Assembly: GCA_002633005.1 (NCBI GenBank)
Contig: NMRA01000007.1
Span: 1,780,838-1,844,837, forward strand
Direction: 5' to 3'
Origin: Phoronis australis
Taxonomy: Eukaryota; Animalia; Phoronida
DNA length: 64,000 nt
In this document: positions 6,140 through 40,656 of the stretch, piece by piece
Layout: each line of letters opens with the position of its first letter
Numbering within the stretch: position 1 is the stretch's first letter
Program-made: the position numbers and the translations under genes
The notes under the pieces: model-generated
The model's database searches: none
What the model was told of the DNA's origin: nothing
The model's input: the letters and a program-made list of their open reading frames with translations, nothing else

Positions 6140-6455
6140 AATACATGTTTGAAAGTTCATGTCCATACTATGGAGGGTTCACATATAGGCTACAGTCCTT
6201 AAGCCTGGACTAATTTTACATTAGCCATGTTCACAGTTTTTTCCTAGGAACACACATTTGCACATTCTATCCAAAAGTGTGAGCTGTTTATGTTACCCTG
6301 TTTACATTCACATATCAGCCTGTGTGGAGCCGCAATGTGTTTTTCTTACTCTCTATTTTTCTTGCCCTGATTACTACTTGTTACTTGTTTTAAATTGTTC
6401 GCCCATGAGTCATACAATTCCAAGCAACTCTTATTCAGTTTTCACTTTTTTGTAG

Positions 6456-9400: not shown

Positions 9401-12400
9401 GATGTACGTTAAAATTAGGTCGTCTAATTGGAATACGTTACGCACTTGAAAACACAAATTAACTACCATTGTATTAGGACTGGTTGCCATCAAACTATCC
9501 ATAATGTGCTTCAAAAATTGCCCTTAAAGACATTGATGTTGCATTCATTGATATAACATTTTTGCCTTAGCTGTGTTTACAAGCTGCTTCTCTGCAGTGA
9601 CCTTTTCCATCTATCAAACTAGAAGGAGTCAGTTGAAACTTGATAGTTGGAAAGAAATGTTCTGTGTGGACTTCTAAAGAACACACTGTTTAGCTAGGCT
9701 TACTTGAGGAAATAACTGGAGAGGTAAGGCGTTAGAGGATGTTCAAGGACTCGTGGTAAAGTGACAAAATGAACTCATATTGTCAACACTCAAATCAAGT
9801 CTTAGAATCTGTCAGAAACAATCTTATGTCTCTTTGTATTTTGCTAATAGTAAATGTTTAACTGACAATTACTGTTGCAACTAGAGGTACTATTACCAGT
9901 AGTCTATAAATGGTCTGTATGTTTTATTTTTAACTAGTATAGGGATCTTCATAGGAAGTGGAGTTAAGACAAGTTCTGGAGGGTTTTTCGCGTACATCAC
10001 AATGTCGTTTCTTTTTACTTTCACTTTGGTTACTTTCCACTTTGGAGTTTGTAAGCTCGTCGTACTGGAAGTTGGGGCGTTCCTGCGAGTGCGTGCAGCG
10101 AGTATTGTACGACATAAGAAAAAATGGGAGGTGGTTCAAAAAGATAAAAAATGAATCCAACACTTGACTGACGTAGACTTGTGAACCTCGTTACAGTGGA
10201 TGTATAACCAAATCCTTAAAAAAAGGTATTCAAAACTGTTAAGTGACTATGTTTAGTAATTAGTATTCACTGAGGGCATTGTGTGTGTGAATGGGAGGAG
10301 TAATTCTCCACCTCCCAGTTGAAGAGCTACATGAGCATGTAAACAGGATGTCCTCAAAATTATGGGATGGATTCTAATAATAAAAGGTGTTCGTTTAAAC
10401 ACTTCTTGCTGTCGAGGTTGCCGAAGTGTTTAAGATTTTAATCACATATGACGGTTGAAAATTACATTCTTTTTGAATGGATGTTTGCCACATGAACACT
10501 CATTTGTTCTACTTACCATCACAGTACCATAACATGTACTGAGGCAGGCCAGGATGTATTGTGTTTATAATGTTTCAGTAGGTTGACATGCTTGTTAATT
10601 TTTTCATTCCTGAATTAACCCTGGTTGTTCTTAGGCAAATTTTGGTATAGAATGGTGGTGCAACTTCTCACATAGTTCAAATTTTAAAAAATTTAGCAGT
10701 ACCATGGAAATGAATCCACAATCTCTACAGTGGCAGCCAAAGGCTCTACCGCTGGCTGCTGGGCATTAAACAGTAGGTAGGATATAATATGCCCACATTT
10801 TGGGAACCAGTTTGGTTACTGCTATTCAGTGGAGAAAACTGGTTCTTAAGTGTGGGCTCATTATATCTGACTGTTACTTTGTTGCTGAGCCAAATCCCAC
10901 ACATTCAATAGTAAAACATGTATATTTTAGTGGCAATGCCACCCGCCTTGAGTTAACTAAATGTCTGGCAGACAACTGCGAGAATTGACGATTTGTAATA
11001 AAATCACAAAATACAATGGATTTTGTTGTTTTATAGCTCTGGGCAAAGTTGATAATTGCAAGAAGTCCAATCTGTTAAACAATAACTGCAAAATTGCATT
11101 TTATAATGCAAAAAACGATTATGTCGCTTAAACCACGAACATTTTCCCCGAAACCAGCCTAATTATAGACTAAACTTTTCGTAATCGTTATTTTTGCTGA
11201 GAATTTTGACAACATAAAGTTCAGTTGTTGGTCATACTGTGGGCTTAAGTGAGACAAGAATTACTCAAGGTGTCCAATATATGACAACCATAGTCTGTTG
11301 ACTGGTTTTACAATAGGCCACTGCTGGAAGTAAGTTCACAGATGGTTTTCTTGTTGAGTGCAGTTCCCCAGTCCAGACATTCCAGTCCAGTACTTGATGT
11401 TTGTGGCCGCCACATAAGTGTTGGCCACATCTGGAGATAATGTAAGAGGGTGGTTTTCACTGTTTTCCATTGTATATTGGCCAGTTGAGGTTGACCTAGC
11501 ATTTGTACACTGCTATCTGTGGACAATAAGCCCTAGGTTTGACTAGCTTTCCCACTTGGTCTGGGTACATTTTAGTGGGGAGTTTTGTGGTGTAGTGTCG
11601 TTCTCTAACTGTCCTGTTGAGACGGAGCTCTCGGGTTGATCTAGTGGGCCTGTAGGTATAACCTCGGTCATGTAAAGACATGACACCGTTTGTATGTTTG
11701 ACATGATCAGAATAAGTTGCTTTTTTAACTGGAATTGTTACTACTTGCCATTTTCATTACGTTATGTGCCAAGTTGAAATTTAGCCGTTTTGTTTGTTTT
11801 TTAAGAAATTGAATGTGACGCCAGCTGTGCACTACAGCCCTTGACCTGTGCTGAAATCAAACACCGAAAGTCTTGCAGAAAATCGAGCTTGCCCTAGACA
11901 GACTCTTGTTGTTTGTCTTCATCTTTAACTCAGAATTCTTCCTTGTGGCTTTTGATAGTGTTGTGGCCTCACATGCCACGTTTTCAGTTTCCAAATCAAC
12001 TGAGTTGATCTGACATGGAGATCCTCTATGTGACCATATTTGACAGAGATGTTCTACTGAAAATAAGTGTTGCCACCATTTTACACAAAATTTGGTCATG
12101 TTCTTGATACTGTTATTGTGCTTTCTGTTTGGCTAAATGTTAATTAAAAGACATGGCCTCTTGACCAAATTAATGTCAGACTGGCAAAAAGTAAATCAAA
12201 TTTTGCAAGCTTTTCTCATTCATAAAATATATACTAATAGGTTAAATTCTATAGTTTTTGTGGTTATTTGGCCAAATGCACCGACTTGTCAATAAGGTCT
12301 TGCATAACCTGATGTGTCTTCATGGAACAGGTCCCTGAGCAGTTTGTATTTGTTTACCTGCAGGTGAAGACCGTGTTCTTGCCTCCATACAGCAAATACA

Positions 12401-15400
12401 GAGAAAGCTGAAGTCAGCCGATAATCAAAAGGATGTTACTGCTCTGACAAGACTCCTTCAGAACCATCGGTTCCTCGCCGCCCTCGCTATATACCAGAAG
12501 GTACAAGCGTGTACCAACCGTTCACCACCCATCACAGCACTGTGCAATAACTCCCAGTTTGTTTCGTTTGACGTCGTCACGGGGCTCAAGTCACAACAAG
12601 GGGTCAACCCGAAGGTCAATGAACTGGTCCAGATTCTGAAGCAGCCAGAGTTTCAGGTGTGTTGGTTTGTTGGAACTGAATAGAACATGCATTTTTGTGT
12701 AAGAAATTAAACGTCTCCGTGGAACTCTCCTTTAGAGGTAAAAAAGATCACCATTTATTCAAGCACTAGTTTCTATTTTTACGAAATCTTATGCTTTGAT
12801 GTTTGGATCCTTTTTTCTTGTCTCTATAAAATTGATCAAAGGGAGATTTCTATCACACTGACTATGTTAAAAGCATGTGTTGCAAAAATTTGTTGTTCAT
12901 AACGTTACTTGTACGAATTCATCACAAAAATTGTTATTGGTTTTTGAAAATGGACAATATACGACAATGATTTTTGCACTTGAAAACATCGAACTACTGA
13001 AATACAGAACGTTGTTTTGTGGTATTCTGTTGTTGTTTTATTGGAGAGACACAGTATTTAGTGCAATTCTTTATATAGTTATCACACAACTGTCTGACAA
13101 GTGGAATTCTATTTTTTTAAATTTCTCCACAAAAGTAGAGACCAAAAAACTTGTAGTCTATTACTAGCATGCTTTGTTCTGTGTAGATTCATAAACATTT
13201 AACGCATTTTCCTTTATTTGCATTAAAATAATAAGCCTTTGAAAAATGGAAAAATGACAATCTTGGCAATTATGTTTGTGTGAAACAAGTGGAGAATTAC
13301 CGTACATTTTGAATTTTCAAGTGGTCCTCAGTTTTGTTTTTCATTGATTGAGTACTTAAAATTCACACTGTTGTAAAATGTAATCAGCTCATTCACGTGA
13401 ATGGATCTGTCATTGGCATGTTACCTTTCTCAGTGACGTCTTACCTCTCTCATTGACATCTTACATCTTTCAGTGGCATCTGTTCTATCCTTATGCTTCA
13501 GTTTTACTCAGGAGTTTGCGTTTGTGTTTATAGAGTTTGTTAAAGGCACACGACAAACTAGCCCAGGGTGAGCCCCCTCCCCCGCCACCCAACCCGGACG
13601 ACGAGATGTTATACAACAGGGCGTCACAGTATGACGAAGACAGTGTGAAGATTGTCAGACTACTCAAGACCGCCGACGCTCTTGTACGTACATTATCAAT
13701 GATGTTTATAGCATTCCTTTGTTGTTTTAATTTGAGTTTCTTTGCGAGTCCGGTTATTTTAAAATTTTTAACATAATGCTGTCAGTGTCGGCCTAACTTC
13801 GAAATCTTGCTCAAGTCATGAATTTGCTTCAAGTTGAACCATGCGGATGTTGGAATTTTTCTGAGAACTGAGTGCAAGTCTACTGGCGGAGGCTGCTCAA
13901 GCCTAAAATGATTGGGCATTTAGTATTTATTGAGTTAGTGACTAGTTTTGCTGTTCGGATTTGGCAGTTTTGATCTTTACCCAACCATTGTAATGGCGCT
14001 TTAAGACTATTACGTTGTATCTGTAGGGTGCTACAGTGAGAAATGAGGGCGATGCAGTGATTATAGGCAGGATTGTCAAGGGTGGAGCTGCAGAGAAAAG
14101 TGGTGAGTGACAGCATGCTGCTGAACAGTATAGGGCAGTGGGCCGTATTGTGGTCTGTCTCTTTGTCAGGTCTGAGCTCAAATCGTGCGTTGGCTGGCAG
14201 ATCACAACGGCACTTGATAAATGCAATCGGGGCAAAACACCATTTCTCCATCGTGACGACTAATTGTGCTTACAGCAAAAATGTCTGTTAATGACCATAC
14301 TAGATTTACTGTTAATTCTCTTCATTCCCGGTCATGATTGTAGGCTACGCTGAGAATGAATTCGGCTTCCGCCCTGCCGACATGACAGGCAATTCCCGAT
14401 TGTTTTGTCTGAACACTTTTTGGGTGTACTATATGAGCATATGAACCATTACACTAGTTACCTCCCTGTGTTGAGTCTGAAATGGGACAAAAGGGCGTGA
14501 ATGTTGTGAGAATGTGTTGAGGGTCGTGGAACAGAGTCAATGTGGTGCCAACGTGTTGAGGATGCATCACTGAAAGCACTGCTAGACACTAATGAGAGTA
14601 TTCCTTGCAAAAATACTTTAAAAATAATTTACGGCCTCTTGTTACATTTCAGTTTACAATAAAGGTTATTGAGCTTAGGATGTGGTCTCAACAAAAGTAT
14701 TCATGAAGAATTTAATGTTTTAATGTAGTCTTTCACTATGGCGGATTTAGGGGGGGGGGACAATGTGGTCATGCCCCCACCCCCCTAAAATTCTCCCAGA
14801 TTCCATTTGGCTGTTCGGGGGGTGCGAATGTCTGGCGGGCAAAATCCTGGCTATTACCCTGCCTTGGCCGCCCCTCTCCCCAACTCAAAATCCTGGATCC
14901 GCCCCTGGTTTACAATTGTCAGCGTTGATTATGTACACCAAACAAGTACTAAGCTGTTGAAGGATGAGAAATGATCATTGTTGCCATGTATCCTATTTAG
15001 GAGTTTGTCTGTTAGTTTATCATTTCCCTACTGTATTTTATCAGTGCACTGTTGCACGATACTATAAAAATGAGGCCATGTGAAAAAGACCCACTTGGTG
15101 ACATTCTGTGACAAAACGTGCTTGCCTGAAATTCTGTGACAAAATGTGTTAGTATTTTGTTAGGTTTAATGTTGTTATATGCTGCATCAAGTGCTAGTTC
15201 CTTTCGTCACAAATTGTAAAATTATGTAATTCATCGCTATCGCTGACAAATATTATGTCTTGCATGTGTGACAAATGTAAAGTTGATGTGACTGAGACAT
15301 GAAAAAAGCTCCAAAAGAGCAACAGGAGTTACTGGTGACATTTCGAAATTATTGAGATGTGACAAATTACGGCTTGCCATTAAACATGAATACATTCTCT

Positions 15401-21400: not shown

Positions 21401-22673
21401 TGAAGTTGATATGAATTGATAAACCAGTAGTATGCCATGTGCAGAAAAGTAGTGCGCATGTCAGGATGACATTGAAGCATGTTTTGGGATTGACCCGAGT
21501 GGACCATGAAAATGTCCAGTTTGTGAACTTTATTAACAAAGATGAAAGAGAAAATTTGGCAGAAGTAGGCGTAGCGGGGGCTGTCATAAACTAGCTGTTT
21601 GAAGGATGCGTCATTGCGGAGTTCAAACGTTGGCTGCGGTGGGGAAATGTAAGCACAAATTGCATCAAACTTAACTTTTTGCAAGGTAAATACAGCTGTG
21701 CGAAGAGTGCCTTATCCGGATAGAGCTTCATTTTGTTTGTGTTCGATGTTGGTGCCCAGTTTGGAAATTAAATAAATATTGAAAACCCAAAATTAGCACA
21801 AAATTAGAGTTGTTCAATTTACTGTAAAACATGAATGAAAACTGACATTTTCATTTTTAACTCTTTTTATTATTTTTTGATAAATTCGATGATGTTTACC
21901 AAATCCAACAAAAGGCATTACATGAACTATTTGCATTCAAAATGGTGGAGTGTCTGGTTCAAGACGTGCACCTGTCTCAGATTCTTGGAAAAAAAACTTG
22001 TTTTTTGATAAATACGGAGGGTCGAGATTCCAATTTTCAAATGCTATACAAGGCATGCGTGTGTCAATGAAGATAAAAACAACATCACATTTTCTTTTTT
22101 TCTAATAATTTAGTCAAAATAATCCCAGAACTGTCCCGATAAGGGTACTTGGCTTTTAATCGCTGTAATATCAATTATGGAAGTGTGATACGGAATCACT
22201 TCTGTTCGATTATCAATGCTATTTTTTCCTTAAGATGCTGTTGTTTCATGTTGTTATTCAAACATCCAAGGACACGACAGATAAATACGGCGGTGCCTTC
22301 CATCACTACGTTATCAAGTCACCATTATTTTCCGATCAGTGCAAGGTGGTTACGCGGGTCTATCCCATGAGGCACCACGGCACGAGAGGGCGCACCTTTT
22401 AAAATTTCAGATCTGCACTTTGTATATTGACTTTTGCTGCTGGTCTTCACACTGTCAGTTTTTGAAGTGGTTTTAATGTGAACATTATTTCAGGAGGAGG
22501 GTCTGCGGGAAGTTATAGAGAATGCACGGATGATGGAGGAAAACTATGGGCATTATTTCGACATGATTCTGGTGAATGGTGATGTGGACAGAGCTTTTGA
22601 TGAACTCTTGGCAGAGATCAATCGGCTTGAGGTAGAACCACAATGGGTGCCAGCTCAGTGGATCAACAATTGA
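6456..22673 (+). CDS. MPP5: MAGUK p55 subfamily member 5 / PALS1 / stardust-type polarity protein (5' start uncertain)
   Basis: Phase-consistent GT-AG exons: 6456-7331, 12364-12656, 13534-13683, 14027-14102, 16323-16489, 16694-16893, 18076-18200, 18811-18978, 20430-20632, 20891-21001, 22494-22673(TGA). Encodes Par6-binding ECR1 motif [10 protein letters not shown]27 region, PDZ ([39 protein letters not shown]), SH3 ([26 protein letters not shown]), basic HOOK and GK ending EPQWVPAQW. First in-exon ATG is 6563; an upstream exon is likely. Confidence 0.93.
14736..14907. mobile_element. Short GC-rich MITE (CAGGGGCGGATCC-type ends)
   Basis: 5' CTATGGCGGATTTAGGGGGG and 3' AATCCTGGATCCGCCCCTG are imperfect inverted ends; GC-rich island in an AT-rich intron. 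Confidence 0.6.
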
Positions 22674-23530
22674 GCCTTGGGTACGAGGCGGCATAGTGAA
22701 TTTTGAGGCTGAGCCAGTTTTGTTCCTGATAAAGAAGAGCACTGGAAAAAGACCAAGCATGTACTCTGCTGATNATACGGAGGGTCGAGATTCCAATTTT
22801 CAAATGCTATACAAGGCATGCATGTGTCAATGAAGATAAAAACAACATCACATTTTCTTTTTTTTCTAATAATTTAGTCAAAATAATCCCAGAACTGTCC
22901 CGATAAGGGTACTTGGCTTATAATCGCTGTAATATCAATTATGGAAGTGTGATACGGAATCACTTCTGTTGGATTATCAATGCTATTTTTTCCTTAAGAT
23001 GCTGTTGTTTCATGTTGTTATTCAAACATCCAAGGACACGACAGATAAATACGGCGGTGCCTTCCATCACTACGTTATCAAGTCACCATTATTATCCCGA
23101 TCAGTGCAAGGTGGTTACGCGGGTCTATCCCATGATGCACCACGGCACCAGAGGGCGCACCTTTTAAAATTTCAGATCTGCACTTTGTATATTGACTTTT
23201 GCTGCTGGTCTTCAGTTTTTGAAGTGGTTTTAATGTGAACATTATTTCAGGAGGAGGGTCTGCGGGAAGTTATAGAGAATGCACGGATGATGGAGGAAAA
23301 CTATGGGCATTATTTCGACATGATTCTGGTGAATGGTGATGTGGACAGAGCTTTTGATGAACTCTTGGCAGAGATCAATCGGCTAGAGGTAGAACCACAA
23401 TGGGTGCCAGCTCAGTGGATCAACAATTGAGCCTTGGGTACGAGGCGGCATAGTGAATTTTGAGGCTGAGCCAGTTTTGTTCCTGATAAAGAAGAGCACT
23501 GGAAAAAGACCAAGCATGTACTCTGCTGAT
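22012..23530. repeat. Near-identical tandem duplication, 22012-22773 and 22775-23530, joined by a single N
   Basis: Both copies begin ATACGGAGGGTCGAGATTCC and end CTCTGCTGAT; only scattered substitutions and a small indel differ. Confidence 0.95.
23251..23430 (+). CDS. MPP5: Second copy of the MPP5 terminal exon (likely allelic duplicate from assembly)
   Basis: Same peptide as 22494-22673 ([35 protein letters not shown]), with a synonymous CTT/CTA change; lies in the second half of the duplication joined by N22774 and is contiguous with the downstream 3' UTR. Confidence 0.8.
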   Translation, partial: EEGLREVIENARMMEENYGHYFDMILVNGDVDRAFDELLAEINRLEVEPQWVPAQWINN

Positions 23531-24831
23531 AAATGTGCCAAGAGTAGTAAACTATGACAAGAATGTTTGATCTGTACAGATGTATTTTCATACACTAGAC
23601 TGCTGTTAAATTTGTCCTGCCAAAATGTGTTTTTGAGTATATGTTAAACAGAAAGGCGTTAGCTGGTCTCATGTTATGAAACGAAATTACTAGTAGATGT
23701 TTGATGATGTGGAGAAACAAATACCCAGGGGCACCTTGGGAAGTTTTGATGAGTGAGGTCTACTTCCTATAGTAAACAATAGCTGTATCTGACGACCATT
23801 TATATATACCCTGCTGTAAGTTTTCTCCCCGACTATCTACCCTATGACTGGGTCCTTTTGCTCACCACGTACCTTGACGTTTTTTTAAGCATATTTGGTT
23901 GAATGATGGCATTTTGTAGTATTCAATAGTTCAATACAGAAAGGACCTATGATATAGTTTTCCCTCAAAAGGTGGCGCTGTTAGCAGTATCCAAGTAACT
24001 AGGAGCAAGCTCCCTGGCTTAGTAACACACCCACTCGAAACTTTACACCTGGTGCCTCTGGAGACAATGTTCTTCAAGTGTTTATTTAAGCTGAGACACA
24101 AGTAGAAGTTGGAAACATATCATTCACAGAGTTGTTAATGAGTTACTTCTTGTTATGTAGATGTAGCAATAACGGTATGAGGTGGTTATTTCCCGTGTAA
24201 ATAAAGCAATACAGAGGGCCTGACGGTGGGGCATATCAAACTACAGTGTTTTCTGCAAAAGAATTAACAGCATTTACGTACCTTAATTATTATTATTATT
24301 AAACTGCAATGCTACAACCGACCCTGTTTTTGTAAATCACATATCACAGCACTGTCCAAATTTTGTTGTTTTTTATTTACTAACAAATTACAGAGTATAT
24401 TTTTGAGTGTGTAAGGTATACAGTTATTTTTTCAGTTCACACAAATAGTACCTTGAACTAAGCTGATCGGACATTATATAAATGTGTAAAGTTCAAGGGT
24501 AAATGTATATGGACGTATTCCCATATGCTTCTTGACCACGTCAAGTTGTGTATGTCTAAACGCTGGTCTTACACTGGCAACATTTAATTGAACTTACATA
24601 TATTCCATTCCTGTCTGAACTTATTATTATTACTATCACTGATGCTTGTCATAATTACAATCTTTGATTCAATTAAATAAGGTTTGCCGTTTGCCTAAGT
24701 CTTTTCCATCAGTGATCAAGTATATAAGCTATCCTGATGTCATTAATGAACTCCGTTGCACCTGCCATTGTTATTATGAACAGGCAGGAACCAAGGATGT
24801 GTTAGGTAGTCCTCATTACTGGAGGGAGAAA

Positions 24832-27149: not shown

Positions 27150-28064
27150 CCCACATAATGCAGTGGTGACGTCATGTTTGAAGGACGGTTCAAAACATAC
27201 CGTACCAAGGTTAAGGTACAACTGAACTTCAAAACTGGAATAAAACAAGTTCGCTGCTGATATAAGTAACACATCAATCACTGAACCTCACTTCATCTGT
27301 AGTTAACATTGACAACAAGGAAAGCAGAACTCACCTTGTTGGAAAATAATTGATATCCCAGTAGAATGAATGTTCATAACAGGCTCTATTAATAATATAT
27401 ATCAGCAATAAGATACTAAAGGAGAATCAAAGCACTTGAAAAATCAAAAGCTTACAAACCAACCATATTTTCTTCTTCAATGATGACTGGACAACTTCAT
27501 AGAAATCAGACAGAAACTTGTGAGATTTTTCAAATATTTTTTTACTCATCTTGGTATGTTATTGAATATATATGGTAAAATTTTTTCAATTTGGGGCAAA
27601 AATAATTGCTAAAATTGTCATTTCTATTTCTCAGATCCTTGCATTCTTTCAAATGCTCGAAAATTCTCCAAATGTTTAGTAATAGCCACGCCATACTAAG
27701 CATGACAGAAGCAAAGTAAATTTTCATAAAAAGTTAGTTACTTTTGTTGAGAAACTTGTGTCCCAAACAGATGTCTTGTTAACATAAGAAATTTTCATGT
27801 TAAAAAAATTCCAGAAAGTCTGTATCATTTTATAGGCATAAAACACACGATGCAGAAACAAATAATCTTAACTAGCGATACAAACAGCAAAGCCCTTCAC
27901 AGCACGGTTATTTGAAGCCTTTAACTGTTAAGGGCTGCAACTTTCAGCTCAACTAGTGAAACAATATTGGCATCAGCTTGAGTAAAAGTAATGCAACAGA
28001 ATGAATACTGAGCTCCACAACAAACCACATGTCTGTCATTACTGATGGATGGCAAACAATCAAC

Positions 28065-31000
28065 CTAAGAACCATCCACACTCTTATTTGTCCTCAGTTT
28101 CTTTTTAAATTTATCGTTTGATTCACTAACAAGACGATCAACATGCGTCAGAAGTTCTTCTTTAGATGCAGAATAGTGCGTCGACTTCCACACCTCCCTC
28201 AAACCTTGAAACACGTACTGAAATCCAGGACCTTTGGGTATTCCTATGTCCAACAAGTCGAACCCTCGGATAGGAAATATAGGTTCTTCCCAGAGTGTTA
28301 AATCCTCTAACAACTTTTTGTTTCCCCAGTACTTGAACAGTTCATACATCCGGCCCCTTAACTTGGCCTTACCCTCTCTACAGTCTAGCAACATGTCTTG
28401 GAAATATTTGAGTCGGTTCTCCTGGCTAGTTTCCCTTTCACTCAGAATCAAAAATCCTGTTTTAAGTTCTTCATTTGACACTTTCAGCCGTTGGTTTAAC
28501 GACACCAACTGGAAAAGAAAATCCACAGTTGCATTGCGTGGCCAACCTTGTCGTCATGTAAGTTCAAATTTACATATTAATTCAAGTCTCACCCCTGAAG
28601 GTGGGCCAGTCATCAGCACTCGTATCATCAATGGGATGGACAAACACTTGAAATATGTAGTTCTTTGACAAGACAAGGTGTAGTTCCAACTTAACTCTGT
28701 TCACATTCATTTCTTAGTACTTCTATTATTTGCTAACAAGGGTTGCATTCCGTAGACCAAAGACTTGCACTTGTGGCGAAAATTCTTCGCTTATGGAACG
28801 TTAACAGTGTCTGAATTCTATCGTATAATTTATGAATTCTATCCCATAATTCAACATTACAAACTCACTGACCAATCACAACAGTGGCCGCCATTTTACT
28901 AGGTTAGGCTAGTAAGGTCTGGAACATAGTCGTGAAACGCCTTTTACTCGTGTGATTTTGTGTAGTGATGCATGCTTCTTGTTAAAACTAGGTCTACCGA
29001 ACACATTCCAGACTCCCTTCCAGTACATAACCATCAAAACTTCCATGTGAAAGCACTGAACAGCAATAGCATGATTGTGTTGTGAACAACACAAGGCGTT
29101 ATGATCATTTACCCAGAGTGTCCAAAAGGTCTTGTTCAGACATGGTAAACCTACTGTCTCTCCAAATATTTCTCAAAGTCCGTAGCATTCTGGCAAAGTG
29201 CACTCCAGGCTCGTAGCCCAGTCAAACAAGTTTCTCACCAATGTCGGGAAACTTTGGAACGTTAACTTGTGAAAACTCGCCGAGAATATCCGGTAGACCT
29301 TTGTACATTAACAATTGACAAATGTTGTTTCTCTTGACGTCATCCTGACCGTGAGTATCACAGAATATGTTCAGGCAAATTCTGATTGGTTCAACTGTGA
29401 AATCAGTTGTTCGGTGTTTAACAATAAATAGTCCATGCTTCAATTCAATGTTGGATAATTTCAGCCGCTTGTAAAAAGTGTACATCTGTGAAAAATGTTA
29501 GAGTCTATTAGGCGACAAGAGCTGTGTTACTCCACTAAGCTATATAATACCCGCATTTTGTGTATAAAACAATGAATTCACCAAGATCTTTTCATTTACG
29601 GGATGTCAATATTCAAGCTGAAATTAAATTTTTCTTGATTCTCAAGATTGCAACATGAGCAATATTGGCAGTCATCACATTTCCCAATTCTTGCATCAGC
29701 AATCACAAAAAATAAATTTGACAGTTCATAAATTGACGAAAGTTTTTCATTTTGTGTCCCCATAATGTGTGACACAAAGGTGAACAATTCTTTGCAGTTG
29801 ATCGTAACTCTTGAATTAGGGACAGTTACTATAGCCTATTTCTGAAATTTGGTACGAGCTCTTACCTCGAGCAAAGTAATTAATTTTTCACTATACCAAA
29901 CTAGAGAATTTTTACCGTAACAAACTTTGAGTATATCACATCGATGCAATTCTTATCACTAGTGTTCTTCTGATAAAAAACTTGTGAGGGGACAGTTTAT
30001 TTTTTATTCACTGTCTGTACTTTCAGTCCAGCACCAACAACTTACAACAACTTGGGTCTTAGGGGGAAAGTTCTCCCTAAAATATCTTTCAACTTTGCAG
30101 ACTGTTATAAATCCATTGGCTGTTATCACAGTCAACTGTCTTTTTGAATTTGACTGGTTTTCATTGCTGGGGAATACCAAGATCATTGTCTATTGAGCTG
30201 ACCGCTGTTTAAGTAGACACAGCTTTACAAAGGCTTCATGATGGTGGCTGTGAAGAAAATTTTATTACCACCAACCTACAAGTTAACACCTCAAACTACT
30301 AGAACAGCCATTAAACGTAAACAATTGTTTTCTATTCTTGAGTAAACAATAATGACATCTTTGTAAATCTAGCCTACTTACATCCTCTTCATTTTTCAAC
30401 AAAGTACTCATCAAAGTCATCGGTAGTGGTTCCAGAGCTGACGCTAGCTTCCACACCGTATCAAACTCATCAACATCTGGATGTGTGGGTAAACCTGAAA
30501 ACAAATAACTCAGTTGGAAAATAGATGTTCCAGTGGTTCTTTTCCCAGTCAGGCTTCGGGATTCTTTTTAAAGTATGTAGTTATGTAAACAAGCCTGCAG
30601 GCAGCCAACCCTTGGTGCTAAAAAGTTAAAAGTCATTGAGGTTCATCTTAAATCATGGACCAAAGCTATATCTCTTAAAGCTATGTATGAATTTATCAAC
30701 TGTCTGTTCATTCAGCCAAATATCTACAAAAGCGTTGATTTGACAGAAAAAGTACTGGTATTTTCTGAAAGTATTAAGTCTGTAGAATTTGAATTTTGAA
30801 AAAAAACTGCCAGTAATTGGATCGCGAGACCATGTCTTTGTAGTAAAACTTAGCAAAAAGAAAAATACATTCACAGCAAAATAACAGAATCAAAATGGCC
30901 AAAAAACATTTGATACAAACTTTCAAGATAAAGTCTCAAAAACGCTGTTAGAGTTTTCTAAATTATCATGTCATTTCCATTTTATGCAATTTTGAATTTT

Positions 31001-34000
31001 GTTCATAAAAATTGCAAAAGCGGAACATTTTAAAACAGTTCCCAACAGCGTTTTGGAGAGCAGTGTAAGGAGCACAATATCTGAAAGTTTCATCAAAATC
31101 TAAGGTATCATGATCCAAAGTAAACCAAAATTGGACATTTTTGTAGAATCTTACATAACCTTAAAATATATTTTGTGAAAACCATATTTGATTTAGGGCT
31201 CTTCCAGCAAAATCTGTATGGGAGGGGGGGAAGGCACTTTTATTTCGTACCCACCGCCCATATTTTTCATTTATTTCTCCAACCAATGACCCATAAATTT
31301 TTAATTATTTTTAATAGGTTAAAATATAAAATCCAACACTTGCAAACAAATTGCCTTCAGGAGGACCTGTTAAGAACTTAGATGATTGACAGACAAGAAC
31401 TAGTTGTCTTGTCCAATATTGTCAAAAACTAAAGTAGCCTGTGAGCAATACTTTTGGCAGCCACCAGGTGTCTCTGTTCACCATGTGTCTATAATTTCAA
31501 TGAACATTTTTTNTAATTTTCATTCTAATACAATTGTACAACATGTGCCTGCAATCAAGTTGCCCATGACTTAAGTAATGGCATAGAGTACATGATGCAC
31601 TTTGTACACTAGCGACATGGGTTTTTTGTCTTGTTTTTTTTGGATATTTTTGGGTATCTGCCAAGTGAATTTTTGGTGAGTTAAGTTTTTTCAGAGGGTA
31701 TTGAGGTTGATTTTTGGCTGAAAATACACACCTGACACATTTAGGGGAAAAATAGCATTCATTTCTTTCAAGAAAGACCACCCATAATTAAAGTTTTCTT
31801 CAGAAGACAACCACCCATATATTTTTATTTCAACTACCACCCCCCCTCCCATATGCATTTTGCTGGCACAGCCCTAACAGCACATGATCAGAAGAATGAG
31901 AAATTAAAGTCCTAAGCCACCTGGCTATAATGTAAGAATAAAAATAAATGAGTGTATCTCCAGGGACTGGCAAAACAAGTGGTAGTGACAGCCTGAGATA
32001 CAGTTTCAAAGCTCAGAAGAGTTACCCAAGCCTACCTATGTATTGTGACAATCCAACTTCAGACATGGTGCGCACCAGACTGTTGGCATGGTTACCCACA
32101 ACAATTTTCTTAAGTTCCATCCATATCCTCTCCCCCGATATCCTTTTTAAGCCAGCAGCATTCTGTTGTATTGCACTCAGTGTGCTAGCCTCATGTGCAT
32201 TGGGTTTGTCAGATATGCGACCATAGAACCTTATAAGGAGACACAAAGAATACAGTATTTGAAATGTCAGTTGATTCATTGAAATCATAAGGCAAGTCAC
32301 TAAACATATCGAGGTGTTTAATGTCCTGAGCATTTCAGTACAGAAATACACTATCCACATTCAAAACTTAATGATGAAAGAGTTTCCATTTACATATTTC
32401 TTTATACTTTATTTTATAGTATTCATAAGCAAAAAACCCAATCTCACTGCAATTGCCAACACCATTAGAAAGACTGGCTACACAAATATTTGAATCAGTT
32501 ACCAAGTAGAAGTAGAAAACCAAATTTTAAACAAAGGAGATAGATTTCGCTATTTATTTCACATTAACAATTATTGAAAACTTTTAAAAAGCAGCAGGAA
32601 ATGACAGACCTAAAGTAACGTAAAATTCTCAAGTAGTCCTCTTGGATTCTGGAGGCAGCATCACCAACAAATCGCACCCTCTTCATTTCCAAATCTTCCT
32701 TTCCATTGAAATAATCGTAAAGGGTTCCGTCAAGTCCTACGTAACATGATAATCAAACAGCTACGAATAATACCTGCATGCAATGGTGTTCTATTCAGAC
32801 CCCAGTTCAATACAACTGTTATTGGCCTTTTGTTGTTTGTGCTGGAATCTCACGGTGATGCAACATGGCATGAAAAGGCAGCTTCACCTATCATTTGACA
32901 GGCTTACATTTGCATGATTGAACTCGCATTTTCTTATTTAACTAAAGCTTTACTAGGACTATCTGGTTAGCCCAATACATTTAAAATAACAAAATTCCAT
33001 TGAAGTTAGACTTTAAAAAGCATGTAAACAAAGGACCCGCATTGCTCAGATGAAACATGCAAACGCTGGAACATCATCAGAACATCTACACTGCTAAATA
33101 TTACATTACAAAAAGCAAATCAATAATGATACTTTTAAATCCCAAAACAGATTTACAGTCTTTGGTGGCAGGATAACTTAAAACATACAGTAAAGTACGT
33201 GTACCAGATACTATTAGAACAGGTTCACTCACCTAAAAACATCGAGTTCACCGTCAGATCTCTCCTGTTGGCGTCCAGCTGCCAGTCTCGTGTGAACTCA
33301 ACTTCTGCGTGTCGACCATCCGTCACCACATCTATACGAAGCGTTGTCACTTCAAAGTTTTCCTACATGTAAAAATGTGTATCAGTACAAAAAGTGTTAT
33401 CTTATTTTAAAAAGAGAACTTCTATCGAAGTGGCAATCAATCTGTTTCCTCCATCAAAAACAATTTTTGTTTTAGGCTATTTGCAGTAATAAAATTGGCT
33501 TCATGTTATTCGTTAAGACTGGTTAGAAATGATTTCTATGTTAGAGAATTGACAAATTGCAATAGGGCCGTCCTGGATTACACAGGGATAGAACTCTCCT
33601 TTGTCTGGGGATAAGAAAGCATGTGACTTAGTTTTGGAAATCAGGCACATTTTCATGTCTCTCATTGATGTCGGGAAGACAAAGAATTTCAGACTACCAT
33701 CCACCAGCATTTGTCCACTTTATCAAACTTTTTCAAGTCGGAGTTGCAGCCTTTAACACAGTAATAATACTCTGTTGGCATTGGAGGGACGAATAGAGTA
33801 ATGCAACCAAGAAAGAATGTTGATATTCTAACACTAGAATATGGCTTACAGTGGCTTAAATGTGGGCAATGGGCAATAACAGAGGTGATGCATTTTGAGA
33901 ACCAGTATGATGCTTGTTATTCAGTGGACTGAGAAAACTGGTTTTAAAAATGTGGGATCCCTGCAAGTGACTATTGCCTAAAAGTAATCGTTTATACACA

Positions 34001-35916
34001 GATAAATACTGCAATATTATACTAACCAATTCATTTCATAGATCACATTCCACTAAATATCATTAACGATATCCAATAACAAATGTATTGGTTAGGGTCA
34101 TTGTTCTTAAAACTCATGAACCCATGAAACTGTAAACCTTTCACATTCTTGATGATCACAGAAAATAGTGCTTACCTATTTGAAATCACATGACCCTATT
34201 AATTCTTTAAAAAATTACAATTCTTCAATGAGATCATTCCCAGATTTCAAAATTTGCATAAAAAGCTACAAATTCCATTTCTGGATGAGTTAGCTAAAGA
34301 AGTTGTCTGGCATAAACAATCAAGAGCTTATACTCTAAGAGCTAAGCTGTCAAAAACGAGAACTCAGTGTAATTCTCAGTAAATTTCCATTTTTCAAAAT
34401 CGTTACCAAACATGTTTTTGTGAATGTTTTACATTTTTTACCAAAATCCAAGAAGAGAATTTAAATATAGTACTGATATCATTGCTCATAAATCATCATA
34501 TGAATAGACTTTACCTTAGACAAACATTTGGATTTGAATGAAGCTTCATGCAGAGCTTTGGGCACTTAAATTGACATTTTCCGTGAAAATAAAAATCGAG
34601 GATTTAAAACTCTTGTTAGTTAGTTTAGCTTTGCTTATCTACTATTTTACATTATTCTTCTGGTGTTTGGAGAAGCAAAAGAATCTCAGTGAAAACAACT
34701 GTCCAAAATAGAGTAATGTTTTTTTTTGGAAGTGAATAGATTTAGTAAAAATCATGCCTCACACGGCAACATGGGATGTAAACTGCAAAGAACAGAAGAC
34801 AGTTTATCCATAAATGTCTGGAATAGTGTATTAAAACTCCAGCTTTACGGAGCAAGTTTTTATGTGGGATTACTCTGTTAACAAAAATGATTGCACAACT
34901 GATATCAAAAGAGTTTTTAATGAAACTGATGACAAAATGTGCCTCGATACAGATGAGTATTTTGTAATTTAAATCGCTCCAAGGGGTGATTATTAGCCCA
35001 ATTACATGCAAGGATATTACCGTTGCATGTGAAAACCGGATTACATGTAAACAAACCACTTGAAAGGAAGATCTGCCTCCCCATATCAACATTGAACATC
35101 TTAATTCTTAGGAAATACTGTCTAATAAGTAACCAACAAGTCCAGGTGGGTTGGGTACACCGATATTTTGTATTTATGGAACTGTAATTGTAAAATGTAT
35201 TAGTCATTATAATAATAAACGGATATCATATATACATACGAATACGGAAACAGAGTTTACAACCCTTGAACACAAATTAAGATTTTCATGAAACACCCCA
35301 TTTTTAAAATAAAACATGACAAAAAATGTCTGAGCATAATTTTTCAAAATGAGTTTCTGAAGTTACGAAAGGTTTTAAAAAATCATGCTTTCATGGGTTG
35401 ACAGCTATATTTAAAATCACAATTCAACATTATGAACATTGTTCATTAGGTACACTAGTACATAAAGCCTAAACTTTTTGTTACCTTATCATTTAGCCGA
35501 CATGTGATTGTTCCATGCTTTTCACCATTCATGTTCAACATGCGTATTTCCTCTTTCTCAAACATTTCTTTCATCTGTTCCGGTGTAGCAGTTGTGGCAA
35601 AGTCAATATCATGAGGAACCTTACCCGACAGAAGGTCACGCACTGCCCCACCTGCGATTCTAATCTCATAACCAAACTTAGTAAACAACTCATTGAGCTG
35701 GTTCAATTCAGGAGTAAACAACTGAAAAAATTCGGGTGTATTCAGCTTCATCGTTCGAAGGTGACCACTACGACGCAAGATAACAGGTCTTTTCACAGGC
35801 TTCGAAAGGTCTGTAGAATAACGTGGCAACTGTGAAATGTGCGGTTTTACCAATTTCGGCGTGAATATTTGTCGACAGGTCGAGTGAAATGTTCTTGAAA
35901 AATACTTAAGTATCAT
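28065..35916 (-). CDS. TRNT1: CCA tRNA nucleotidyltransferase 1 (class II CCA-adding enzyme)
   Basis: Exons (-): 35916-35485, 33362-33233, 32736-32610, 32229-32036, 30494-30382, then 28508-28065 (or alternative 29485-29105). Motifs [52 protein letters not shown] and SGERIW are intact. N-terminal 55 aa are R/K/S-rich, resembling a mitochondrial presequence. Confidence 0.95.
28741..28968 (-). repeat. Dispersed repeat, copy 1 (homologous to 40451-40656)
   Basis: Shared blocks in the same order: CAAAATCACACGAG, CTTACTAGC, AAAATGGC.GCCACTG, TGTTGAATTATGGGATA, TCGCCACA, GGTCTACGGAA. Confidence 0.8.
29105..29485 (-). CDS. TRNT1: TRNT1 proximal alternative terminal exon (paralogous body/tail segment) with in-frame TGA at 29224-29222; functional or pseudo-exon
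   Basis: Acceptor TTTTTCACAG|ATG, phase 0 as required by the preceding exon. Translation [74 protein letters not shown] is colinear with the TRNT1 C-terminus on both sides of the stop. Confidence 0.75.
31196..31874. mobile_element. MITE, PIF/Harbinger-like ends
   Basis: TIRs GGGCTCTTCCAGCAAAAT..ATGGGAGGGGGG / CCCCCCTCCCATAT..ATTTTGCTGGCACAGCCC, flanked by TTA and TAA; same ends as 45350-45915. Confidence 0.75.
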
Positions 35917-36553
35917 CAGGTCATCTGCAAATAAAAAGACAAGAGTTGATGAATACAAGGATAAAACTCTCCAAAACTCAATCTTAACAACATGCTTCAC
36001 CAATGTACCTAGTTATCGATGAAACGATTCTTGTTTTCAACACACAATGTAACAGTACTTGTTAATGTCACTGGTAGTACTAGTAATTGTATGAATATTT
36101 TAGGAATTGTTTTCTTTTACAAAAATGAGCGTGATACCTCGATTGATGTTAGCAAGTGTTCATTAGTCTCTGATACCTTAATAAAGAGGCATTTCTGAGA
36201 ATTTATTGCCATTGTAGTTATGCGCACAGCTTTCGATTGAGGTAATAGTAGTAGACTGGAGAGTGGAGTGGAGACCAGACCCAGGGCTGAGTTCAGTAAC
36301 ACTAGAGTCTTGCTAGAAAAGCAAGGATTCACGAGATTCCACAGGATATCGCCGTAGAAAGGGCATAATTTTCATAAGATTTTTGTTGTCGCAACACGAT
36401 TATCGCCAGACGGTCATTGACAGCTATCGTCAAGGTAAGTATCCATTGTGGAGTTGCTTGAACAGTGACAGTGTCAGTGATAGTGCGCGTACCAGTTGGT
36501 CCACCATGTATTTTCGGTGGTTAAGACGAGTCACAAAAGACCACCGTGCTTAC

Positions 36554-36996: not shown

Positions 36997-39900
36997 ATGC
37001 CACTTTATGAAGGTATTGGTTATGGGAGAGAAAAAGATTCTGTAATCCTTGACATTGGAGCGGCGTACACAAAATGCGGATTTGGTGGAGAGAATGGCCC
37101 TCGCTGCATCATCCCATCTGAGGTCAGGCGACCATCAACGGGGCGTGTTGTTAGACTAAGAGAAACATCTACAGAAGACCTTCATGATGTTTTAGTGGAC
37201 TTTCTTTATATTGTTTACTTCAGGTAATTTCTCAGTTTTTAGTGCATACATTATTTTGAAAAGCAGAAAGCTCAGCAAGTTCAGACCACACTGCACAGCC
37301 AAAGGCCGCTCTCATCAGCGGCTCGTGGTTATGTACTATAATGTTATAGCGTTATATAAGCGGCTGATTAGAAGTGCCTGTGTTCCGACTTACCGGTCAA
37401 TATTTTGTCCTTGTTGATGATTTTTGGTCCATTACTTTTGCAGATAAGTTCAAGTCAACCCTACTGATTCAATTTACTTGGCCACATGTTAAAAATTATC
37501 TGTTGACAAATACATTTTGTTGCGACTAAGGTATTTTTTTGTCAGGTGACCTATAATTTTCACATTTAGGACAAAAATAAAAGAGAGATAATTGCAATTT
37601 GTCTATGTATTTAAATCCAATCTATAAATAGCAGGTAACTATTTCCATACATATTGTATAGTATACTTCTTAATAATAAATTGTAAATTAGTTGAGCAGT
37701 TACATTACGCGTATATCACCTGTCTGCCTATGGCATCCGCAGGCAATGTATTGTCTACATATCATCATGATAATGAAAATTAGCTGGCTAGCTAGTTGTA
37801 GATGACATTATATCAAGATACTGGTAGGAATTGATGTTGAAACTCTATAGTGATGTATCCCACAATGACATTATAGCAAAATGTAAAGCGCCCGGCCATC
37901 CTTGTTTTTTTATAACCTCAGGATTCGAATGACTCCTGCCTTGTTTGTTACGGGCGTTTTAAAGAAACAGCCTGATAAATTCCTCTTACTTGTTTCTCAA
38001 TCCTTCTTTAGTAACCAGAAAAAATCAGGTACTTCTAAAACTTTTGAAAATTGATTGCCCTTGCCTGTGTTTTTGTTTTTCATGGAGTATTACAAATTAA
38101 GTTTTGGTTAATGTTATGCAATAAATATTATATTTTCATATCTTTTTTCATAATGTGTATTTCATGTTAAACTTATCAGATTTGAATTATATACCTAGAA
38201 CACAGGCATTTCATTAACTATTTAAAAATTCTGCAAAATCTCACAAGAATTATGATGATGTGTTTTTGTCGTATATAAAATTATGTTCAAGACACTTGAT
38301 TCACTAGGAATTTGTACTTAAAAACTGCTTGTCAGTCCTTCAATCTCTAATTGTAAAGTCATTGAATTCCCACCACTTGAGAATTTTTTCTTGCAAGTCT
38401 TCACCACTGTGATATAGTGTTATGTGCTTTTTGTTCTTTCTCAGACACTTGTTGGTGACTCCGACAGAGAGACGTGTAGTTATTTGCGAGTCTGTACTCA
38501 ACCCATCCGCCAATAGACAGACTCTTGCCAAGGTGCTCTTCAAGCATTACCAAGTTCCTTCAGTGGTATTCTGCCCCACTCACCTGTTAACGCTGTTTAC
38601 CTTGGGTGCCTCGTCGGCCCTCGTTATGGATTCTGGTTACACAGAGACATTTGTTCTGCCTGTGTATGAAGGTATGCCAATACTGAAAGCATGGCAAGCG
38701 TTGCCCTTAGCTGGAAAAGCACTTCATGATAACTTAAAAATCATGCTGTTGGAAGCTGCGACCATATCGACACAAAGGGAAGAGCAGCAGCCACTGTCGT
38801 CAGTAGGGGCATTTGTGGATGAAAAGGTGTTAGAGGACATTAAAGTCCGATGTTGTTTTGTAACAAAAATGGACAGAGCTAAACAAATACAACAAGCTAA
38901 GTTGGAAGAATCTGGCCTGATGCCAACTGAAGGAGGAGCTGAACGTCTGACGCCTCCACCAGATGTCGCCTATCCACTAGATGGCGGTAGGATCGTGCAT
39001 GTCAGTGGGAAGATTAGAGAGGAGACTTGCGAAGTGCTGTTCGAGCAAGACATGGAGGAGAAATCTTTAGCCACCCTCTTACTTGATGCTATACTGAAGG
39101 TTAGAGCTCAGGCTACTTATGAGTTTAGACAAAATTTGGTCTCACTTCACAGTTACTGAACAACAGTTTAGTCGTGTAATTATTATAACACCATAACCTA
39201 GAAATAATATATACTAATTACTTCCTATGTATGTATGCATGCATGCATGCGTGTATGTATGCATGTATGTATAACTAGAAGTTATCGGTATGTTCTCAGA
39301 GACTATGTATTTGATTATTTTTCAGAAATAGTTGTTTGAAGTGTAATACCAAATTTCTGACTCGCACTTTTCATGAAACAGGGCGTAGGTGTTTTTGTCT
39401 AAGGAATGTCATTAGAACTCTTCAAAGGGTTCCAGAGATTACATTGTACACTTCAAGGCAGTTACTCAGGTTGAGTGACAATTAGTGAAGATGACGCTAA
39501 TTGCACGATTCACGTACAGTAATAGACAATTTTTTCTGGGCACTTGTTTCTGAAGTTGGCAAGTATTAAACGCTTTAATTTATTAAAGCCAAAATCTGAA
39601 GTTTCCATATCACAATTATTAAAAGTGTTCAGTATACACCACAATGAAGCTTATGAACTGCTTTGTTCATAAATTCTAGTCTTGGTTTTAGTTCTCCGAT
39701 CATGTGTTAAATACAGTCAAACCACGAGTGTATTGCAAAGTGCTCATTGTTAATCTCTATTGGTGTGATTGCATCGGGCTCCAGTTACAACGAACGTTTT
39801 TGAAAAGTTCTGGGAGGGTTTGTTTTTACCAGGTCCAATTTTGTGTCAAAATATATAACATGTGCAGTTTATTCTGATTACTGGTGAGGATTGATTTGTG

Positions 39901-40279
39901 TTCTAACACGTCTGTTTGAACTGTTTTACAGTGCCCCATAGACATCAGGAAAACGCTCGCTGAGAACTTGGTCATTGTAGGAGGGACATCCATGCTTCCG
40001 GGATTCAAAGCCCGTCTCAAAGCTGAGATTTATGACCTGCTGGATAAACCGCAGTACAAAGACTGTCTGAAGTTGAAAGAAGTCAAATTTCACCAGCCTC
40101 CAGCCAAGGACAACTACACTGCTTGGCTTGGTGGAGCAATATTTGGTGCGCTGGAAGTATTGCCTAGTCGATCTGTCTCGCGAGAGAAGTACCTTCAGAC
40201 TGGAGTGATACCTGATTGGTCGTCGCTGTCTGGTGATGAAGCTGAGGAGGGTGAAAGTTCACCACTGAAATCAAGATAG
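36997..40279 (+). CDS. ACTR10: Actin-related protein 10 (dynactin Arp11 subunit)
   Basis: Exons 36997-37223, 38445-39099, 39932-40279 join in frame. Begins [41 protein letters not shown]; contains [42 protein letters not shown] and IPDW. Confidence 0.96.
39226..39272. repeat. (ATGT/ATGC)n microsatellite in ACTR10 intron 2
   Basis: TATGTATGTATGCATGCATGCATGCGTGTATGTATGCATGTATGTAT. Confidence 0.85.
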
Positions 40280-40450
40280 ACCAGGGGACATAACTTACGT
40301 GTGAATGTTTCGTGCTGCGATGGAGCTAATCAGTGAACATTGTCTGCTGAAATCTGGATAGTTTGGAGGCAGAGCTACAGTAAATGTTACCACAGAAGTG
40401 GAGCTGCGTTTTTAGATGCAAAAATTTAGCAAGTAAGCGAGATCATGCAT

Positions 40451-40656
40451 AGCCATGCAAAATCACACGAGAGAAAGGCGATTGTTTCGCGGATATACTT
40501 GGGAGCTTACTAGCGACCCTCACAAAATGGCCGCCACTGAAGTGGGTGAGGTTGAAGTGTTGAATTATGGGATACCAGTCACTGTTTCCATTTCATAAAC
40601 GAAGATTTCTCGCCACAGCTGAAGTGCAAGGATCTTGGGTCTACGGAACATAGCCC
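40451..40656 (+). repeat. Dispersed repeat, copy 2, just downstream of the ACTR10 stop
   Basis: Aligns with the reverse complement of 28741-28968. Confidence 0.8.

What the first reader, a model, noticed from the sequence alone, without database searches (positions are those of the whole stretch)
28065..29485. CCA-adding enzyme gene with two paralogous, alternative C-terminal (body/tail) exons
Seen: after the exon ending ..KNEED (phase 0, 30382) there are two tandem terminal exons, each with a good phase-0 acceptor: 29485-29105 ([42 protein letters not shown]) and 28508-28065 ([42 protein letters not shown]). They are colinear but strongly diverged, and neither has a frameshift, so the duplication is old and both were long constrained. 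Only the distal one has a basic extension ([13 protein letters not shown]-like). Known: in class II CCA enzymes the body/tail contacts the tRNA top half and elbow and influences substrate range and nucleotide counting; some eukaryotes split this activity between paralogous genes. Inference: one catalytic head may be fitted with either of two tRNA-binding tails by alternative last-exon splicing, for example for mitochondrial versus nuclear/cytosolic tRNAs. I know of no description of this arrangement.
Basis: partly seen in the sequence, partly recalled or inferred. Interest (0 to 1): 0.85.

Follow-up and report, generated by a model that had tools for sequence, protein, structure and literature searches.

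The report
CCA enzyme with spare, broken tail
This animal gene for the enzyme that finishes every tRNA carries two old, very different copies of its last exon; RNA shows splicing to the far copy, while the near copy has a premature stop in this genome and is likely a recently disabled second tRNA-gripping tail.

Summary
The duplication is real. A six-exon TRNT1-type CCA-enzyme gene carries two colinear last exons, A (29485-29105) and B (28508-28065), 26% identical and both matching human TRNT1. RNA shows 17 exon5-to-B junction reads in three runs and lists no junction into A; one run has about 6 reads' worth of sense coverage on A. Yet A keeps 19 of 21 conserved columns and has no frameshift, so it was under protein selection until very recently (best estimate 0.02-0.06 substitutions per site). 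Best reading: a once two-tailed enzyme whose short tail was recently disabled; intact alleles may survive. Whether the TGA is fixed was not examined. Mitochondrial versus nuclear sorting more likely comes from two start codons. By analogy with Ascaris, B's basic extension more likely binds tRNA than acts as an NLS. Duplicated last exons are known (oyster AOX); none was found for a CCA enzyme in five literature searches.

The parts
35485..35916 (-). Exon 1 coding part: Met1 with a basic, acid-poor 55-residue leader (predicted mitochondrial presequence), then the head domain with the catalytic DxD
   Evidence: Pfam PolyA_pol E 5.7e-15; human TRNT1 E 2.7e-32; leader has 12 K/R and 1 D/E; sense RNA depth 3-6.5
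35749..35751 (-). Second in-frame ATG (Met56), predicted start of the nuclear/cytosolic form
   Evidence: Aligns with human Met30 (offset checked against D77/D79/E121); human use of Met30 from passages
33233..33362 (-). Exon 2: third catalytic carboxylate, flexible loop, RRD motif
   Evidence: Ungapped match to human TRNT1, E 4e-20; joint 33232-32735 in 7/3/3 reads
32610..32736 (-). Exon 3: EDxxR templating motif
   Evidence: Human TRNT1 E 1e-15; joint 32608-32227 in 5/1/4 reads
32036..32229 (-). Exon 4
   Evidence: Homologue profile 87 bits; joint 32034-30492 in 2/1/5 reads and an X5 contig
30382..30494 (-). Exon 5, ends in phase 0; shared donor for either last exon
   Evidence: joint 30382-28508
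29105..29485 (-). Exon A: proximal duplicated last exon (body/tail), 126 codons, ends without a basic extension, broken by an in-frame stop
   Evidence: 114 bits; 19 of 21 conserved columns; depth 0/0/2.35 in X7/X8/X9 in bin 29106-29406
29222..29224 (-). Premature TGA, codon 88 of exon A, at the position of human residue 395 in the tail domain (354-434)
   Evidence: mapping; domain limits; variable column (E 25, A 17, Q 12, K 10 of 94; no Cys)
28748..28974 (.). Dispersed repeat between the two last exons; no canonical AATAAA or ATTAAA between A and B
   Evidence: 66% copy at 40444-40648; both-strand, divergent RNA reads; poly(A) signal scan
28065..28508 (-). Exon B: distal last exon, open, 147 codons, the spliced form
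   Evidence: 17 junction reads; depth 5.5-9.4; human TRNT1 E 1.7e-18; model pLDDT 90.6; fold match to 8cbm_E TM 0.72
28068..28130 (-). 21-residue C-terminal extension of B with a lysine-rich patch, absent from A
   Evidence: predicted to continue the last helix
27300..28064 (-). 3' UTR of the B transcript (at least this long)
   Evidence: Sense depth 3.7-10.5 down to the edge of the stretch laid

Best explanation
The gene carries two old copies of its last exon and splices exon 5 to the far copy B, while the near copy A holds a premature stop and is likely a recently disabled alternative last exon of a once two-tailed CCA enzyme. Shown: the duplication, the stop, the exon5-to-B splice and the strong protein-level conservation of A. 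Inferred: the last exon was duplicated in tandem long ago. [quoted passage not shown] B, whose extension would tighten tRNA binding, came to serve all tRNAs. A lost its use, perhaps when a repeat landed behind it and no strong poly(A) signal was left, and then took a nonsense change. The 479-residue head+B protein is the working enzyme, sent to mitochondria or nucleus by its two start codons. Head+A would stop at 419 residues, without the last three helices of the tail.
For: TGA at 29224-29222, at the position of human residue 395; the tail is 354-434 and cradles the T-loop (PMC11144196 passages). Human frameshifts further downstream (S418fs) are listed as SIFD alleles (PMC10017860 table passages). 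Exon5-to-B has 17 reads; none is listed into A; A has zero depth in X7, X8 and X5. Long constraint on A: 114 bits against a profile of 94 homologues, B 138; 19 of 21 conserved columns, B 18, homologue median 18.5; codon-position identity 0.44/0.56/0.32. Simulated neutral decay to 26% identity scores at most 21 bits. One stop with no frameshift fits 0.02-0.06 substitutions per site without selection, 95% upper bound 0.08-0.28 depending on the assumed indel rate. Ancestral state is a single last exon: L004 has the same six exons and last intron with one tail; 0 of 11 tail-bearing loci among 17 hold two. Both copies are accelerated: 33% and 35% mean identity to 19 homologues, which share 41% among themselves.
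Against: Whether the TGA is in the DNA reads, fixed or polymorphic was not examined. The estimated time since loss is of the same size as allele differences in this species (6 other letters in 416 of exon B in X5), so the stop may be a segregating null. X9, which differs in genotype from X7/X8 (27911: 11 of 11 against 0 of 3 and 0 of 10), has sense depth 2.35 on A. Its 190 letters in the next bin equal depth 2.4 over exactly the 79 exonic bases, and the intron bin 30009-30309 is empty, as if A were still spliced. The joint table also omits the expected exon1-exon2 joint, so a missing row is weak evidence. A's acceptor is as pyrimidine-rich as those of exons 2, 3 and 5. Past use of A as an alternative exon is inferred, not seen.
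Confidence: 0.5

Rival explanations
1. The two-tailed enzyme still works in this species. The TGA is a segregating null allele (or an assembly error) of this haplotype, and intact alleles make a minor or condition-specific head+A isoform, as the proximal copy does in oyster AOX.
For: A is as conserved as B at key columns, including after the stop, and ends with a stop where extension-less homologues end. X9 has sense coverage on A that fits an end at the acceptor, while its five repeat-free intron bins (30009-30309 and 34223-35426) are empty. X9 differs in genotype from the runs with no A signal. Time since loss is about allele divergence. Precedent: PMC5589949 abstract.
Against: No junction into 29485 is listed; 0 depth in X7, X8 and X5. 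X9's signal is about 900 letters (about 6 reads) and may be copies of 1-3 molecules; X7 shows depth 1.4-2.5 in purely intronic bins. A stop in a last exon may escape decay (own knowledge), so transcription would not show function. No canonical poly(A) signal behind A.
Confidence: 0.33
2. A and B were constrained as the ends of two separate tandem genes. A deletion removed the second gene's head, leaving its last exon spliced to the first gene's exon 5 and orphaning A; alternative splicing never took place.
For: Explains long constraint on both copies without a regulated switch. A and B are less alike (26%) than any pair among 19 homologues (minimum 30%) and were sisters in 0% of 200 bootstrap trees. 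Tandem gene arrays are a known mimic of such exons (PMC3228551 passages).
Against: No remnant of head exons between A and B or anywhere in the window. The AU test does not reject A+B as sisters (p 0.40). The hybrid would have had to abandon its own co-evolved tail. Animals usually have one gene (PMC4538823 abstract and introduction).
Confidence: 0.1
3. The TGA is functional: read-through or recoding restores the full A tail at low level, or the 419-residue product is a regulatory, partly active form.
For: The stop is followed by C (a leaky context, recalled) and a 7-pair hairpin. The 38 codons behind it remain conserved.
Against: The 101 bases behind the stop fold no better than shuffles (z 0.54). 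The column is variable and never Cys in 94 homologues, so selenocysteine is unlikely. Conservation behind the stop is also what a recent nonsense change leaves.
Confidence: 0.07

Closest known systems
Human TRNT1, animal class II CCA-adding enzyme (PDB 4x4w, 8cbm, 1ou5)
   Same: Head motifs, flexible loop and second Met align without gaps. Both last exons match its body/tail; the B model matches 8cbm_E at TM 0.72.
   Different: Human has one C-terminus and no basic extension (Fig. 2 legend). Here the last exon is duplicated and one copy has a premature stop.
Oyster alternative oxidase CvAOX, tandem duplicated last exon 10 (PMC5589949, abstract seen)
   Same: Tandem copy of the last coding exon, alternative 3' splicing, distal copy dominant under normal conditions.
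   Different: Other enzyme; both copies are open and expressed there. Here the proximal copy is stopped and its splicing is not shown; here it is the proximal copy that scores higher against the closest homologues.
Homologous 3'-terminal exons / multiple poly(A) sites, e.g. human capping protein beta (PMC3228551, passages seen)
   Same: Similar length, frame, splice phase and sequence homology of neighbouring terminal exons.
   Different: A poly(A) site for the proximal exon and its use are not shown here.
Ascaris suum CCA enzyme with basic C-terminal extension (PMC12013499, abstract, introduction and first results read)
   Same: Basic extension beyond the human end, like exon B. A versus B resembles the deletion variant versus wild type of that paper.
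   Different: Single form in Ascaris, 40 residues against 21 here. Nothing is known here about this organism's mitochondrial tRNAs, and such extensions are common among homologues (52 of 148).
Split or paired CCA systems: CC-/A-adding pairs in S. pombe and a choanoflagellate (PMC7014341, listing only), two genes in choanoflagellates, two paralogues in Dictyostelium, human splice variant of Lizano 2007 (title in a reference list only)
   Same: More than one form of the enzyme in one eukaryote.
   Different: Those are separate genes or, as recalled, an internal exon skip. None is one head with two homologous tails.

Membership tests
Animal class II CCA-adding enzyme (TRNT1) | Catalytic carboxylates (DxD plus Glu) in the head | tested here: met
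   Aligned to human D77/D79 and E121; numbering
Animal class II CCA-adding enzyme (TRNT1) | Flexible loop intact (not a CC-adding deletion) and EDxxR template | tested here: met
   Ungapped alignments of exons 2 and 3 to human
Animal class II CCA-adding enzyme (TRNT1) | Complete helical body/tail domain (head+B form) | tested here: met
   spliced
Animal class II CCA-adding enzyme (TRNT1) | Complete body/tail domain (head+A form) | tested here: not met
   TGA at codon 88 removes the part matching human 395-434 in this assembly
Animal class II CCA-adding enzyme (TRNT1) | Leader plus second in-frame Met for dual targeting | tested here: met
   Sequence level only; localisation not tested
Animal class II CCA-adding enzyme (TRNT1) | CCA addition in vitro | not testable with these tools
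   Needs an enzyme assay
Tandem duplicated alternative last exons | Neighbouring homologous exons, same phase, similar length, each with acceptor and terminal stop | tested here: met
Tandem duplicated alternative last exons | Both copies open | tested here: not met
   A stopped in this assembly; other alleles not examined
Tandem duplicated alternative last exons | Both copies spliced to the shared upstream exon | tested here: inconclusive
   B 17 reads; A none listed, about 6 reads' worth of coverage in X9 only
Tandem duplicated alternative last exons | Own poly(A) site for the proximal exon | tested here: inconclusive
   Only variant hexamers behind A; B also lacks a canonical one within 1.6 kb
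Freely decayed pseudoexon | Neutral decay: several stops, frameshifts, loss of conserved residues | tested here: not met
   One stop, no frameshift, 19 of 21 conserved columns, 114 bits
Selenocysteine or programmed read-through | Cys-aligned UGA with SECIS, or stimulatory structure | tested here: not met
   No Cys in the column among 94 homologues; only loose pattern hits at 28868 and 28592; z 0.54

The most novel reading that the evidence does not exclude
In this animal lineage one CCA-adding head is still fitted with either of two deeply diverged tRNA-binding tails by last-exon choice: a short tail for canonical tRNAs and a tail with a basic extension for deviant mitochondrial tRNAs or stress. 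The stop seen here is only a null allele of one haplotype or a loss in one species, and intact A survives in other individuals or close relatives.
Probability: 0.35. Interest if true: 0.75.

Novelty: new variant of a known kind. Interest (0 to 1): 0.5.

Why it matters
The CCA enzyme is essential and usually one gene that must handle both canonical cytosolic and odd mitochondrial tRNAs. Known answers are a changed beta-turn, a basic extension, or separate genes. A gene that kept two tails 26% alike under selection for a long time would be another answer, and a natural chimera pair for testing how the tail sets substrate range. Even if A is now dead, it would be an alternative isoform caught just after its loss. 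The value drops if A is fixed-dead here and absent in relatives.

Tried and rejected
No whole genome is held, so a second TRNT1 gene elsewhere could not be sought. No RNA holder was listed by index; raw-read runs came by species label. Word-based protein searches found no scoring relative of B or A, so there was no close relative for dN/dS. Pfam has no model for either tail. The tail alignment had no stretch conserved enough for a locus scan; the head exon gave 17 loci, 11 with a tail, none with two. Only 4 intron-bearing or split loci (L004, L008, L012, L015) have 0.6-8.5 kb behind the tail; the others are mostly short or intronless. Looking up 20 of the 150 listed homologues showed no two sharing a contig length, a weak test. 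The 4 two-stretch hits are insertions, not double tails. The tree is unresolved (47 of the 94 long homologues used). The Atlas gave no result. Earlier scan findings: none. Rejected: selenocysteine and read-through as main reading; an NLS as the main role of B's extension (untested; favour tRNA binding); free decay of A.

Full report
Gene model. The minus strand carries an animal TRNT1-type CCA-adding enzyme: exon 1 35916-35485, exon 2 33362-33233, exon 3 32736-32610, exon 4 32229-32036 and exon 5 30494-30382, all with GT-AG ends, 996 bases, ending in phase 0. Exons 1-3 match human TRNT1 without gaps and keep the catalytic carboxylates, the flexible loop and the EDxxR motif (motif names recalled, residue numbers). 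RNA confirms the joints exon 2-3, 3-4 and 4-5. The exon 1-2 joint is not among the rows shown.

The observation. Two candidate last exons follow: A (29485-29105) and B (28508-28065), each behind an AG acceptor in phase 0. They are homologous far beyond chance (score 120 against 27 +/- 4, max 48, in 1000 shuffles), and each matches the last ~125 residues of human TRNT1. A profile search of all six frames of the window finds each head exon once and the tail twice. By the alignment it sits at human residue 395. The tail is residues 354-434 and cradles the tRNA T-loop (PMC11144196, passages), so head+A would lose about half the tail, the last three helices in the model of B. Human frameshifts further on (S418fs) are listed among SIFD alleles (PMC10017860, table passages), so such a protein is probably impaired (inference).

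Splicing. About 18-19% of three raw RNA runs with the same species label (one study) and one contig set were laid on 27300-36300. The joint 30382-28508 has 7, 3 and 7 reads. No joint into 29485 is listed; listing needs 3 reads in a run, and 3 joints were hidden. Depth in the bin 29106-29406 is 0 in X7, X8 and X5 and 2.35 (sense) in X9, against 8.5, 5.5 and 9.4 on exon B. In X9 the next bin holds 190 letters, which equals depth 2.4 over just the 79 exonic bases, and X9's five repeat-free intron bins are empty. X9 also differs in genotype from X7 and X8. This hints that A is still spliced in that sample. It is only about 6 reads, however, and X7 shows similar depth in plain intron bins. Whether these reads are spliced, what they read at the stop, and whether the TGA stands in the DNA runs remain open.

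Constraint. A search of 1.84 billion representatives with B gave 294 homologues, 150 listed, at most 44% identical. A profile of the 94 that cover most of the exon scores B 138 bits and A 114 bits, A without a gap. Of the 150, 14 score higher with A although they were picked with B. A keeps 19 of 21 conserved columns, B 18, homologues a median of 18.5. A and B share 32 of 121 residues, with 44%, 56% and 32% base identity at codon positions 1-3. Simulated neutral decay of B to 26% identity scores at most 21 bits in 100 runs, and the chance of at most one stop and no frameshift is 0.20 at 0.05 and 0.03 at 0.1 substitutions per site (mutation and indel rates are my assumptions). The best estimate of time without selection is 0.016-0.06 substitutions per site, 95% upper bound 0.08-0.28, against tree branches of 1.68 and 1.75 changes per residue. 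A was therefore a selected coding sequence for nearly all its history. The estimate is of the size of allele differences in this species, so a fixed recent loss and a segregating null cannot be told apart here.

Origin. L004 has the same six exons and the same phase-0 last intron with one last exon and 1186 bases behind it; that exon scores 91 bits with A and 76 with B. None of the 11 tail-bearing loci among 17 holds two tails. One last exon is thus the likely ancestral state. A and B are each further from 19 nearby homologues (33%, 35%) than these are from each other (41%), and less alike (26%) than any pair among them. They were never sisters in 200 bootstrap trees, but the AU test does not reject it (p 0.40). 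This fits an old in-lineage duplication with acceleration of both copies; a two-gene origin is not excluded. No close relative was found for dN/dS.

Mechanism. A's acceptor is ordinary (11 of 17 pyrimidines, like exon 5; B has 13), so something must favour skipping. Terminal exons are often chosen through their poly(A) site (PMC3228551, passages). Between A and B there is no AATAAA or ATTAAA, and a dispersed repeat lies at 28748-28974. That loss of a 3' end led to disuse and then to the stop is my inference; B's own nearest canonical signals are also far (26402, 26364). For targeting, the 55-residue leader is basic (12 K/R, 1 D/E) and Met56 aligns with human Met30, the start that makes the nuclear form (bioRxiv 10.1101/2025.03.27.645657, passages). 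Compartment choice therefore does not need the tail. In Ascaris a basic C-terminal extension is needed to bind armless tRNA and confers this on the human enzyme (PMC12013499, parts 1-2 of 6 read; the text has no mention of NLS or splicing). If tails were specialised, B would be the broad-range or mitochondrial one. A basic cluster in the last 30 residues is common, though (52 of 148 homologues by a crude pattern).

Comparison and novelty. The architecture is known: oyster AOX has a tandem last exon with a stress-induced proximal form (PMC5589949, abstract), and human capping protein beta has homologous terminal exons. For CCA enzymes the papers seen describe one gene (PMC4538823, part 1 of 5 and passages; PMC7730189, passages), separate paralogues, or a human splice variant (title only). 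Five searches on the enzyme or with its name among the terms listed no duplicated last exon; only the top listings were seen, the library lacks most subscription papers, and no supplements were read. PMC5740500 was seen in passages only. The earlier-findings index returned nothing.

Verdict. Recently disabled alternative tail 0.50; still working through intact alleles 0.33; relic of a two-gene fusion 0.10; functional stop 0.07. New variant of a known kind; interest 0.5.

Noticed in passing
window 32885-32922: A 36-base skip with CT..AC ends (3, 4 and 15 reads in X7-X9) inside a repeat in intron 2; probably reads from a spliced copy of the repeat elsewhere.
   Followed up: no
window 31193-31512, 32718-33018, 33621-33928, 29708-30008: Intronic dispersed repeats with deep, divergent RNA coverage on both strands; an inverted pair at 31193-31230 and 31840-31877.
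   Followed up: partly
window 38413-40279 (+): Two long open frames of an actin-related gene, by eye Arp11/ACTR10-like (name recalled), divergent from the CCA gene and with few introns.
   Followed up: no
window 6371-7522 and 12339-12683 (+): Exons that by eye resemble a Stardust/MPP5-like MAGUK (name recalled).
   Followed up: no
window 22200-23760: Near-identical translated stretches recur about 0.7-0.8 kb apart, pointing to a local tandem duplication or assembly repeat, with an N inside.
   Followed up: no
P0114, P0122, P0097: Animal-like CCA enzyme domains embedded in long proteins (397-1043 aa) with unrelated flanks that look phage-like by eye.
   Followed up: no
window 28148, 28159, 28246 (exon B); 30446; 35823: Amino-acid-changing differences between RNA reads and the assembly (5 of the 9 coding differences shown), pointing to a polymorphic species.
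   Followed up: partly
window 34583-35039: Five molecules in X7 begin and end at the same places inside intron 1; probably copies of one pre-mRNA fragment.
   Followed up: no
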